From a virus (taxonomy: Duplodnaviria > Heunggongvirae > Uroviricota > Caudoviricetes), in the IMG/VR virus record IMGVR_UViG_3300039346_000011: DNA of 27,612 nucleotides; one strand, given 5' to 3'. Each line of letters starts with the position of its first letter. Positions within the stretch are counted from its first letter, which is position 1. Shown piece after piece: positions 1,222 to 2,192 of this stretch. Below the pieces are notes generated by a model. That model ran no database searches, was not told the origin of the DNA, and saw nothing but the letters and a program-made list of their open reading frames with translations. A program made the translations under genes and the position numbers.

Positions 1222-1312
1222 TCACATTTTGAGGATATTTAACGTCTATGCTTTAATGATTTTATTCATTGTTTTATAATCGCGAAGAATAATGATGAAC
1301 TTGGCAAAGGAT

Positions 1313-1543
1313 ATGATTATGCGTATTAAACCTCAAGATTTTAAGTTTGATGTGTTGACTGTTGCTGGTTACGCTAACCCTAAAGCTAAAACACATTTCG
1401 CACCTTCTGCTTCTGGATTTAATTTTAAATGGGAGTGGGAAGGGAAAATTTATGAGCTTCATATCGAGCAAGAAAAATTACAGTACCCTGATTTTATTCT
1501 TGAACGACTTTTTGATGCCGCAATTGAGATGGCTAAAAAATGA
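1313..1543 (+). CDS. Hypothetical protein (AT-rich moron gene)
   Basis: Track ORF 1292..1543; AAGGA SD favours start at 1313/1319. Low GC relative to flanking lysis and head genes. No recognisable motif. Confidence 0.4.
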   Translation: MIMRIKPQDFKFDVLTVAGYANPKAKTHFAPSASGFNFKWEWEGKIYELHIEQEKLQYPDFILERLFDAAIEMAKK

Positions 1544-1649
1544 CAAAAATCACCGGATGGGGTTTTTGTTTATAGATATTCACACATAGCCCTTGCATCT
1601 AGAACAGAAAATCTTGTCATGGCGCGGGGCTATGTTAGCAAAAATTTAT

Positions 1650-2090
1650 TTAATAGGATATTTTGTTTGCAGATTTAAGCTCTTTAAGAGTAGCGTCAAG
1701 TATATGTAAAAATAGAGAAGTGTCGCCATACTCATAATGTGGCTCGGATTTGTATTCTCTAATATAAATAAATCCACCTTTGGATAAAAATAAATCAATC
1801 AGCTCGTTGTTATTTTCATCGGTTGGGTCAATGGCAGCAAACTTCAATACAGGAGCTTCATCAATGACTAGCAGTGTTTCTTTGAAAATAAGTTCTAGTT
1901 CATATGTTGAAAGTTTGAGGGTTAACCTATTTTTTTTATCTTTATTGAAAATTATTGTGTCGCCAAGAAAATCGTATTCAGAGCTTGAGTCAATAATGTT
2001 ATTCTTAAGTTTGAGAGATATTGCATCTAAAGCCTTTTTATGCTCTGCGCACTTAACAACTTTATGAACATCTAAACTGGGGATACTCAT
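1650..2090 (-). CDS. Hypothetical protein (AT-rich moron gene, convergent with the 1313..1543 gene)
   Basis: Track ORF 1650..2153; ATG at 2090 has AGGTGG 7 nt upstream (MSIPSLDVHK...), so I call the 146-aa form. Very AT-rich. Confidence 0.5.
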   Translation of the reverse strand: MSIPSLDVHKVVKCAEHKKALDAISLKLKNNIIDSSSEYDFLGDTIIFNKDKKNRLTLKLSTYELELIFKETLLVIDEAPVLKFAAIDPTDENNNELIDLFLSKGGFIYIREYKSEPHYEYGDTSLFLHILDATLKELKSANKISY

Positions 2091-2192
2091 AATACAACCA
2101 CCTATGTAAGAACTAAAGAGCATTGAGTCTATGTGATTAATATCAAGACCCAATTAAATTTTTTAAATTATTAGAGTTAGATCCCACTTTAA

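What the first reader, a model, noticed from the sequence alone, without database searches (positions are those of the whole stretch)
1260..2160. AT-rich two-gene moron between the lysis cassette and HNH/terminase
Two convergent ORFs (1313..1543 plus strand; 1650..2090 minus strand with a strong SD) have markedly lower GC than neighbouring phage genes and no recognisable motifs. The Rz-to-cos interval is a known moron slot in lambdoid phages (bor-type cargo), so these may be lysogenic-conversion or exclusion genes.
Basis: inference. Interest (0 to 1): 0.45.

Follow-up and report, generated by a model that had tools for sequence, protein, structure and literature searches.

The report
Two separate orphan prophage cargo genes
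The AT-rich stretch between the lysis genes and the DNA-packaging genes of this E. coli prophage holds two real but independent accessory genes of unknown function. One of them is switched off by a one-base slip in about 43% of the complete E. coli genomes that carry it.

Summary
Window 1222-2192 is a 32-37% GC island that fills the gap between Rz and the HNH endonuclease gene. It holds two convergent genes under purifying selection: geneA (1319..1543 +, 74 aa; not 1313) and geneB (1650..2090 -, 146 aa).

"Moron slot" is supported. Sister E. coli prophages with the same flanks carry iss, a DUF6236 gene or another small gene there instead.

"Two-gene moron" is not supported, because the genes travel separately.
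- geneA occurs in at least 8 phage backbones of Enterobacterales. It always lies in the lysis-to-terminase gap on the late-gene strand, with a -10 box and an intrinsic terminator.
- geneB occurs in 6 backbones. It is always antisense, beside HNH/terminase modules, at 30-33% GC, and has its own terminator in relatives.

Both proteins are soluble and cytoplasmic, so they are not bor/iss-type lipoproteins. Neither matches Pfam, PHROGs, PADLOC, NCBIfam, PDB sequences or any sequenced phage. geneB has only 6 representatives among 1.84 billion proteins.

geneB contains an A8 tract seen as A5, A7, A8 and A9. The A7 frameshift is in 44 of 102 complete genomes, including UTI89, APEC O1 and IHE3034, and arose at least three times.

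Function is unknown. The best guess is autonomously transcribed, protein-binding accessory factors. This is a new member of a known kind, of moderate interest.

The parts
784..1221 (+). Rz (i-spanin, 'lysis protein'). It is the last conserved gene on the left of the slot. Homology to sister prophages ends at 1211.
1222..2192 (.). AT-rich variable cargo slot (GC 0.32-0.37). It is replaced by iss, a DUF6236 gene or an 83-aa gene in sister prophages.
1275..1280 (+). TATAAT -10 hexamer of the putative geneA promoter. It is identical in 5 of the 6 aligned relatives (the sixth, L029, reads TATTCT), and a -10-like hexamer sits at a similar distance in more distant family members. The -35 is weak.
   Evidence: sequence only; not tested experimentally
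1308..1312 (+). Shine-Dalgarno AAGGA of geneA, conserved as AAAGGA in relatives.
1319..1543 (+). geneA: a 74-aa soluble protein (pI 6.7) with a WEW motif and a nearly invariant C-terminal helix PDLILERLFEAAIEMAKK. The predicted fold is alpha-beta3-alpha.
1542..1570 (.). A/U-rich hairpin followed by a T-run. It is the eroded counterpart of the GCCGCC-N4-GGCGG-T6 intrinsic terminator that follows geneA in relatives, and may act in both directions.
1584..1635 (.). Long stem-loop (CATAGCCC...GGGCTATG) between the convergent genes. Its role is unknown. Relatives have a different palindrome at the same relative position.
1650..2090 (-). geneB: a 146-aa acidic (pI 5.4) soluble alpha/beta protein from an orphan family, with GC 0.32.
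1930..1937 (-). A8 homopolymer (T8 on the + strand) at geneB nt 154-161. It is polymorphic: A5, A7, A8 and A9. A7 gives a 55-aa truncated product.
2098..2103 (-). Shine-Dalgarno AGGTGG of geneB, 7 nt before the ATG.
2091..2192 (-). Divergent geneB/HNH intergenic region. The candidate -10 is GATATT (2139-2144), conserved in the relatives that are 63% identical. More distant relatives have a perfect TATAAT here.
   Evidence: weak; the consensus scan found nothing here
2193..2543 (+). HNH endonuclease. It is the first conserved gene on the right of the slot, followed by P27-family TerS and TerL.

Best explanation
The island is a junction of two independent single-gene accessory cassettes (morons), not one unit.

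geneA cassette (promoter -10 at 1275-1280, ORF 1319-1543, hairpin/terminator remnant 1542-1570):
- It travels at the 3' end of lambdoid lysis cassettes.
- It is probably transcribed from its own sigma-70 promoter, and also by read-through of the antiterminated late transcript.
- It makes an 8.7-kDa cytoplasmic alpha-beta3-alpha protein. This most likely works by binding another protein through its nearly invariant C-terminal helix.

geneB cassette (1650-2090 plus the divergent region 2091-2192):
- It travels at the 5' side of HNH/terminase packaging modules and always points against the late operon.
- It would therefore be made from its own promoter when the late operon is silent (the lysogen) and opposed by convergent late transcription after induction.
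- It makes a 16.7-kDa acidic cytoplasmic alpha/beta protein with no catalytic signature. This most likely acts stoichiometrically on a protein partner.
- The most likely arena is phage-phage or phage-host conflict (exclusion, defence or counter-defence).
- In E. coli it is repeatedly switched off by slippage of an A8 tract.

Shown: gene reality, modular independence, slot variability, terminators in relatives, cytoplasmic location, recurrent frameshifting.

Inferred: promoter use, expression in the lysogen, the protein-binding mode and the biological role.
For: Slot variability.

Independence of the two genes:
- geneA without geneB: L003-L012, L036-L044.
- geneB without geneA: L002, L017-L020, L023-L028, L030-L032, L048.
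- Homology to L009/L011 runs endolysin-Rz-geneA and stops at 1541. Homology to L002 covers only 1649-2127.

Autonomous units:
- A -10 and Shine-Dalgarno lie upstream of geneA.
- A canonical terminator follows geneA in relatives.
- Strong terminator hairpins follow geneB in L002 and L017, with z-scores of -3.9 and -6.6.
- A perfect TATAAT lies upstream of the distant geneB relatives.

Composition: geneB has GC 0.30-0.33 in backbones of 0.42-0.54.

Coding: dN/dS is well below 1.

Soluble proteins: maximum 19-residue Kyte-Doolittle hydropathy is 0.44 for geneA and 1.12 for geneB.

Fold: the geneA model has pLDDT 69 and only generic small alpha/beta binder-like matches.

Tract:
- 58 intact and 44 frameshifted among 102 complete genomes.
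- The truncated product is on 871 contigs and the full-length one on at least 1000.
- SNP data show the change arose more than once.
Against: - No expression data exist for either gene. No paper mentions these proteins or their locus tags.
- The promoter scan found nothing above chance. The geneA -35 is weak, and the geneB promoter is only a candidate.
- AT-rich foreign DNA in E. coli is typically silenced by H-NS (established knowledge), which could keep both genes off in the lysogen.
- In this window the geneA terminator stem is eroded.
- No PADLOC hit above noise supports a defence role. PDC-M24A scored E 0.011-0.016 in 2 of 6 members.
- The geneB structure model is unreliable (pLDDT 39).
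- Frequent loss of geneB in ST95-complex lysogens argues against a strong benefit to the host.
Confidence: 0.5

Rival explanations
1. geneA is not cargo. It is an accessory member of the late lysis operon, for example a cytoplasmic regulator of lysis timing or of the hand-over to packaging, made with holin, endolysin and Rz from the late transcript.
For: - geneA lies in the lysis-to-terminase gap, on the late-gene strand, in every backbone seen. In most it sits 70-100 bp after Rz.
- Homology with L009/L011 runs continuously from endolysin through Rz into geneA.
- Purifying selection is very strong, with dN/dS 0.03-0.19.
- RefSeq annotates it as intact in 9 of the 10 ST95-complex genomes compared, whatever the geneB state.
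Against: - It is absent from sister prophages with near-identical Rz (L013-L015), from all 50,697 deposited phage genomes and from PHROGs at any significant level. It is therefore dispensable for lysis.
- It has its own -10 and its own terminator.
- It has no membrane segment.
- In L041 and L042 it lies about 700 bp from Rz. In L043 no Rz homologue was detected and it lies about 900 bp downstream of the endolysin.
Confidence: 0.2
2. geneB serves the phage rather than the lysogen. It would be a small acidic inhibitor (counter-defence, or take-over of a host protein) made early after infection or on induction.
For: - It is small, acidic (pI 5.1-5.4) and soluble, with no enzymatic motif.
- The family is confined to phage genomes. 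The one pattern scan of species-representative genomes returned none.
- Purifying selection acts across phages, yet the gene is often lost in vertically inherited E. coli prophages. That is the pattern expected if it matters only during infection.
Against: - Its orientation against the late operon, far from the early region, is unusual for an early counter-defence gene.
- It has no similarity to any known anti-defence protein in the PDB or BFVD searches.
- There are no expression data.
Confidence: 0.2
3. The two convergent genes form one functional pair: a two-gene moron such as a toxin/antidote or sensor/effector pair.
For: - They are adjacent in the window lineage.
- They are also adjacent in a second lineage behind a different lysis cassette (L016, with a GH19 endolysin). 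There geneB is 93% identical and geneA is truncated to 50 aa, and the spacer region aligned downstream of geneB is near-identical apart from one substitution.
Against: - Each occurs without the other in several backbones.
- In L002 the geneA position holds an unrelated 76-aa gene, 19% identical.
- geneB is frameshifted in 44 of 102 genomes. In the frameshifted genomes examined geneA is still annotated intact, except in APEC O1.
- In L016 geneA is truncated while geneB is intact.
Confidence: 0.06
4. geneB is functionally tied to the neighbouring HNH/terminase packaging module, for example as an inhibitor that keeps the HNH-terminase nuclease harmless in the lysogen.
For: In all six backbones geneB sits next to the HNH/packaging module. 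In four it is immediately divergent from HNH. In the L002/L023-L028 type a 78-aa gene intervenes, and in L048 two genes (485 and 198 aa) intervene. TerL identity among these backbones falls as low as 24%.
Against: - Sister prophages with 92-95% identical HNH/TerS lack geneB and carry other cargo.
- The gene is lost in 43% of carriers with the packaging genes otherwise unchanged.
- Any cargo in this slot of an HNH-type phage would neighbour HNH.
Confidence: 0.07

Closest known systems
Lambda bor / E. coli iss (a lysogen-expressed gene immediately downstream of Rz, antisense to the late operon)
   Same: geneB has the same genomic slot and the same antisense orientation. Sister prophages with the same Rz and HNH flanks carry iss exactly here. 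Both are single-gene cargo.
   Different: Bor/Iss are outer-membrane lipoproteins of about 97 aa with a signal peptide and lipobox. geneB is a 146-aa acidic cytoplasmic protein with no hydrophobic segment and no sequence similarity to them. A serum-resistance role is therefore unlikely.
Morons as defined for HK97/lambdoid phages: an independently expressed gene inserted into a phage operon (definition as quoted in PMC2629481). An example from my own knowledge is HK97 gp15, a superinfection-exclusion moron.
   Same: - Present or absent between otherwise collinear relatives.
- Deviant base composition.
- A -10 box upstream and an intrinsic terminator downstream.
- Small proteins of no structural or lysis role.
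   Different: Expression in the lysogen and any exclusion phenotype are untested. gp15 is a membrane protein, whereas these two are soluble. There is no sequence relationship.
P22-like 'ant moron' region (a variable cargo site inside the late operon; PMC2629481)
   Same: It is a single hot spot in the late region where different phages hold different, rapidly exchanged gene sets, some on the opposite strand.
   Different: The site differs: lysis/packaging junction here, between genes 16 and 9 in P22-like phages. The gene content also differs.
Type III secretion chaperone / YbjN-like alpha-beta-beta-beta-alpha-beta-beta-alpha fold
   Same: - The order of predicted secondary-structure elements in geneB (H-E-E-E-H-E-H), its size (about 145 aa) and its acidic pI resemble this fold.
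   Different: - No Pfam or PDB sequence match was found.
- Treat this as a lead, not a finding.

Membership tests
Moron (autonomous accessory cassette in a phage operon) | Present in some and absent from other otherwise collinear related phages, at a fixed site | tested here: met
   The flanks are shared at 80-95% identity up to 1211 and from 2191. Between them are iss, a DUF6236 gene, an 83-aa gene or geneA+geneB.
Moron (autonomous accessory cassette in a phage operon) | Nucleotide composition different from the surrounding phage genes | tested here: met
   GC is 0.32-0.37 against 0.46-0.59 in the flanks. geneB is 0.30-0.33 in four backbones of 0.42-0.54.
Moron (autonomous accessory cassette in a phage operon) | Own promoter | tested here: inconclusive
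   geneA: TATAAT is identical in 5 of the 6 aligned relatives, and a -10-like box is present in all others, but the -35 is weak. geneB: there are only candidates, GATATT here and TATAAT in L030/L031. The generic scan found nothing above chance. No transcript data exist.
Moron (autonomous accessory cassette in a phage operon) | Own transcription terminator | tested here: met
   A canonical GC hairpin plus T-run follows geneA in 8 relatives and follows geneB in L002 and L017. In the window itself the geneA terminator is eroded.
Moron (autonomous accessory cassette in a phage operon) | Expressed from the repressed prophage | not testable with these tools
   This needs RNA-seq, TSS mapping or a reporter in a lysogen. 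No paper names these genes.
Bor/Iss lipoprotein family | Signal peptide with lipobox; Bor/Iss homology | tested here: not met
   Neither protein has a hydrophobic N-terminus or a lipobox, and neither has a Pfam or NCBIfam hit.
Known anti-phage defence systems (PADLOC-DB 2.0) | Profile match to a catalogued defence protein | tested here: not met
   There is only a sub-threshold partial hit of geneB to candidate PDC-M24A: E 0.011-0.016, 31 residues, 2 of 6 members. geneA has none.
Two-gene toxin-antitoxin or paired system | The partners co-occur across genomes | tested here: not met
   Each gene is found without the other in several backbones.
Phase-variable contingency locus (slipped-strand on/off switch) | Repeat tract in the reading frame whose length changes recurrently and toggles the frame | tested here: met
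   Alleles A5, A7, A8 and A9 occur in two sequence lineages. Among 10 prophage copies the change arose more than once, and the four-gamete test against SNP L001:2811 fails.
Phase-variable contingency locus (slipped-strand on/off switch) | Tract maintained by selection, with switching faster than background | tested here: inconclusive
   The tract is absent from the homologues that are 62% identical or less. A G8 tract in the holin gene also changed in 1 of 10 copies. Neutral decay at a mutational hot spot is not excluded.
Type III secretion chaperone / YbjN-like fold | Confident structural match | tested here: inconclusive
   [not shown]

The most novel reading that the evidence does not exclude
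geneB founds a new family of prophage conflict proteins. These would be small acidic chaperone-like binders placed antisense at the lysis/packaging junction of HNH-type cos phages. In the ST95 complex of extraintestinal pathogenic E. coli, an A8 tract would turn the gene on and off as a genuine contingency switch. Sibling lysogens would then differ in sensitivity to other phages or satellites, or in the cost of carrying the gene.
Probability: 0.15. Interest if true: 0.65.

Novelty: new member of a known kind. Interest (0 to 1): 0.4.

Why it matters
- The prophage sits in the best-studied extraintestinal pathogenic E. coli strains (UTI89, APEC O1, IHE3034, S88, NU14 and the type strain ATCC 11775).
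- These reference strains differ in whether geneB is intact. That is a ready-made natural on/off comparison for finding its phenotype.
- The analysis shows that the lysis/packaging junction is built from two cargo positions. One rides with the lysis cassette and one with the packaging module, which is useful for annotating prophage accessory genes.
- Both families are truly orphan and confined to phages of Enterobacterales, so any phenotype would define a new family.
- If neither has a phenotype, the region is ordinary prophage cargo.

Tried and rejected
- **Profile searches.** Both proteins, and all family members, gave nothing significant in Pfam, PHROGs, PADLOC and NCBIfam. The weak hits to phrog_33369 and phrog_36626 are families of unknown function.
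- **PDB sequence profiles.** Only noise, such as acetylcholine receptor at E 0.04.
- **Rfam on 1000-2800.** No match.
- **Deposited phage genomes.** Neither megablast of the 1-kb region nor tblastn of the two proteins found a match.
- **AFDB Foldseek.** Not available.
- **Structure of geneA.** pLDDT was 69, but it matched only generic small alpha/beta folds and uncharacterised phage proteins.
- **GTDB species representatives.** geneB gave no hit. geneA gave only Pantoea latae.
- **Literature.** No paper mentions the protein accessions or locus tags. The Gifsy defence-protein paper found by keyword (PMC12724215) concerns an unrelated gene.
- **Generic promoter/terminator scan.** Uninformative in this AT-rich DNA.

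Full report
**1. What is there**

The window matches a myovirus-tailed, lambdoid-regulated prophage of phylogroup-B2 E. coli.
- The 1-kb region is 100% identical to ATCC 11775. It occurs in 105 of 5,426 complete E. coli genomes, always once and always on the chromosome.
- GC drops from 0.46-0.53 in the lysis genes to 0.32-0.37 across about 1200-2200. It returns to 0.56-0.59 in the HNH endonuclease and terminase genes.
- RefSeq annotates two hypothetical proteins in the gap: WP_001220676.1 (1319..1543 +, 74 aa; geneA here) and WP_000026993.1 (1650..2090 -, 146 aa; geneB).
Homologues align from 1319, and the AAGGA ribosome-binding site at 1308-1312 is correctly spaced only for 1319.

**2. Both are real genes from orphan families**

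- geneA: about 20 clusters among 5.8 billion proteins. Full-length members are 72-74 aa (shorter or longer entries are truncated or mis-started calls) and come from Escherichia, Citrobacter, Enterobacter, Pantoea and Leclercia. dN/dS is 0.03-0.19.
- geneB: 4 clusters in that collection. An exhaustive HMMER profile scan of 1.84 billion representatives found only 6, three of them full-length at 30-62% identity. dN/dS is 0.18-0.33 for diverged pairs.
- Neither matches Pfam, PHROGs, PADLOC or NCBIfam, PDB sequences or any of 50,697 deposited phage genomes. Rfam finds nothing in the region.
- Both proteins are soluble, with no hydrophobic stretch, signal peptide or lipobox. The pI is 6.7 for geneA and 5.4 for geneB.

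**3. The slot is a cargo-exchange site**

E. coli prophages with the same endolysin/Rz and the same HNH/TerS(P27)/TerL share sequence up to window 1211 and again from 2191-2193. Between those points they carry other cargo:
- iss, the bor homologue, on the minus strand (L013);
- a 288-aa DUF6236 gene (L014);
- an 83-aa hypothetical gene (L015).

The AT-rich island is therefore exactly the variable segment.

**4. The two genes are not one unit**

- geneA occurs without geneB in at least eight backbones with different holins, endolysins and terminases. It always lies in the lysis-to-terminase gap on the late-gene strand. It usually sits 70-100 bp after Rz. It is followed by different minus-strand genes: a 65-aa gene, DUF2158 plus an 80-aa gene, or a 206-aa gene.
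- Homology of the window to L009/L011 runs through endolysin, Rz and geneA and stops at 1541. Homology to L002 covers only 1649-2127.
- geneB and its relatives occur in six backbones whose TerL identity falls as low as 24%. It is always antisense to the late genes and next to the HNH/packaging module. In four backbones it is immediately divergent from HNH; in the other two, one or two genes intervene.
- In four of those six backbones geneA is absent, and in one of them an unrelated 76-aa gene takes the geneA position.
- The pair occurs together only in the window lineage and in a close variant behind a GH19-type lysis cassette, where geneA is truncated to 50 aa (L016).
- The simplest description is this. 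geneA rides on the right end of lysis cassettes, geneB rides on the left end of HNH-type packaging modules, and here the two ends meet.

**5. Each looks like an autonomous transcription unit**

- Upstream of geneA, the only strongly conserved non-coding elements are a TATAAT hexamer (1275-1280) and the AAAGGA ribosome-binding site. The hexamer is identical in 5 of the 6 aligned relatives, and more distant members have TATAAT, GATAAT, TAGAAT or TGTAAT at a similar distance.
- Directly after the stop codon, eight relatives have a canonical intrinsic terminator, GCCGCC-N4-GGCGG followed by T6. In the window the GC stem is eroded to an A/U-rich hairpin plus a T-run at 1542-1570.
- geneB relatives in L002 and L017 have strong terminator hairpins of their own, with z-scores of -3.9 and -6.6. 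L030 and L031 have a perfect TATAAT 30-45 nt before the start. The window and its 63%-identical relatives share only a weaker GATATT at 2139-2144.
- The generic promoter scan is uninformative in this AT-rich DNA.
- The features of a moron as summarised in PMC2629481 are met for insertion pattern, composition and terminator. Promoter use and expression in the lysogen are inferred only.

**6. Structure**

- geneA: AlphaFold2 with 14 sequences gives pLDDT 69 and pTM 0.54. The fold is alpha-beta3-alpha, ending in the nearly invariant helix PDLILERLFEAAIEMAKK.
- geneB: with 3 sequences the model is unreliable at pLDDT 39.
- Neither protein shows a catalytic motif. A stoichiometric protein-binding role is the most economical inference.

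**7. An unexpected feature: a slippery tract in geneB**

- geneB nt 154-161 is an A8 run (window 1930-1937). The alleles found are A8 (intact), A7 (frameshift, 55-aa product ...DKKIG), A9 (54 aa...DKKK) and A5 (in frame, one Lys fewer). They occur across two sequence lineages.
- Among complete E. coli genomes, 58 carry the intact 80-nt segment and 44 carry the one-base deletion.
- In W224N and PMV-1 the deletion is the only difference from the window across the 1-kb region.
- Carriers of the deletion include the reference strains UTI89, NU14, IHE3034, APEC O1, APEC O18, UM146 and IMT5155.
- In the protein collection the truncated product is on 871 contigs and the full-length one on at least 1000, drawn from NCBI, JGI/IMG, Logan and ENA assemblies. 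Its presence in so many independently produced genomes makes a sequencing artefact unlikely.
- A SNP table of ten prophage copies over 20 kb shows discordant sister pairs.
  - ExPEC XM (intact) and APEC O1 (frameshifted) share a derived SNP.
  - C1 (intact) and IMT5155 (frameshifted) share four.
  - SF-166 (intact) shares 2811T with UTI89, IHE3034 and E12053 (frameshifted).
- All four combinations of 2811 and tract state therefore exist, so there were at least three independent slips unless recombination intervened.
- Controls: none of the eight 7-nt runs varied, and the other 8-nt run (G8 in the holin gene) varied in one of ten copies.
- The tract is absent from homologues that are 62% identical or less. 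I cannot distinguish a selected on/off switch from neutral decay at a mutational hot spot.
- Either way, about 43% of carriers lack geneB, while geneA is annotated as intact in 9 of the 10 genomes compared. APEC O1 has a W40-to-stop change at window 1438.

**8. Interpretation**

Best supported (anatomy about 0.8, overall 0.5) is two independent single-gene morons.
- geneA is probably transcribed from its own promoter and also by late read-through.
- geneB is transcribed against the late operon. It is therefore probably made when the late operon is silent and opposed by it after induction, like bor.
- Both are small cytoplasmic proteins that most likely act by binding a partner. A role in phage-phage or phage-host conflict is the most likely arena, but it is a guess.

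Points against:
- there are no expression data;
- H-NS probably silences such AT-rich DNA (established knowledge);
- there is no match to catalogued defence proteins;
- geneB is frequently lost.

Rivals:
- geneA as a true late-operon accessory gene (0.2);
- geneB as a phage-serving inhibitor (0.2);
- geneB tied to HNH/terminase (0.07);
- a functional A+B pair (0.06).

**9. Novelty and score**

The kind of element (moron cargo at the Rz/packaging junction) is well known, so this is a new member of a known kind. Three results are new:
- the split into a lysis-linked and a packaging-linked cargo position;
- two truly orphan families with conserved position and orientation;
- the recurrent frameshift, which makes well-studied pathogenic strains natural on/off variants.

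Interest is 0.4.

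Noticed in passing
window 1-91: The first 91 bases are not prophage sequence. They are the end of a multi-copy IS3-family element (annotated IS3 / IS1203-like in other genomes), joined to the prophage inside the holin gene. ATCC 11775 and UTI89 have an intact holin here. No complete E. coli genome in the collection has this exact junction. This prophage copy is therefore probably lysis-defective.
   Followed up: partly
window 956-1168 (+), embedded in Rz (784-1221): An Rz1-type o-spanin ORF lies in the +1 frame of Rz. It has a lipoprotein signal, ...FLLGISAC followed by a proline-rich stretch. RefSeq does not annotate it in the genomes examined.
   Followed up: no
window 2570-2629, between HNH and TerS: An inverted repeat GGGGCGGG (2570-2577) / CCCGCCCC (2611-2618) is followed by a T7 run. 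It could be a terminator-like element or part of the cos/packaging signal upstream of the small terminase gene.
   Followed up: no
window 1584-1635; L003, L005, L009, L036, L042 just after the geneA terminator: Several geneA relatives have a conserved imperfect palindrome about 35 nt long directly after the terminator: TGTCATCACCATGGG-N3-5-CCCATnGTAATGGCA. The window has a different, longer stem-loop at the same relative position. Its function is unknown; it could be a second terminator, a protein-binding site or a recombination joint.
   Followed up: partly
window 1438 (APEC O1, locus L049): APEC O1 has a G-to-A change that turns Trp40 of geneA into a stop codon, in addition to the geneB frameshift. 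RefSeq accordingly does not annotate geneA in that strain.
   Followed up: partly
L001 10881-10888 (holin gene of ATCC 11775; the corresponding sequence is replaced by the IS in the window): A G8 run in the holin gene is shortened in strain MS7163, where the holin is annotated as frameshifted. This is a second homopolymer in the prophage that can knock out a gene.
   Followed up: partly
L051 (IMT5155), L001 position 7007: A one-base insertion frameshifts the LexA-family regulator gene of the prophage in IMT5155. In IMT5155 and E12053 the integrase is truncated next to IS elements. These are signs of piecemeal prophage decay in some lineages.
   Followed up: no
L056 (strain C1), L001 positions 5809-6732: A cluster of about 30 SNPs in roughly 1 kb spans the PerC-family and methyltransferase genes in strain C1, against near-identity elsewhere. 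This looks like a short recombination patch.
   Followed up: no
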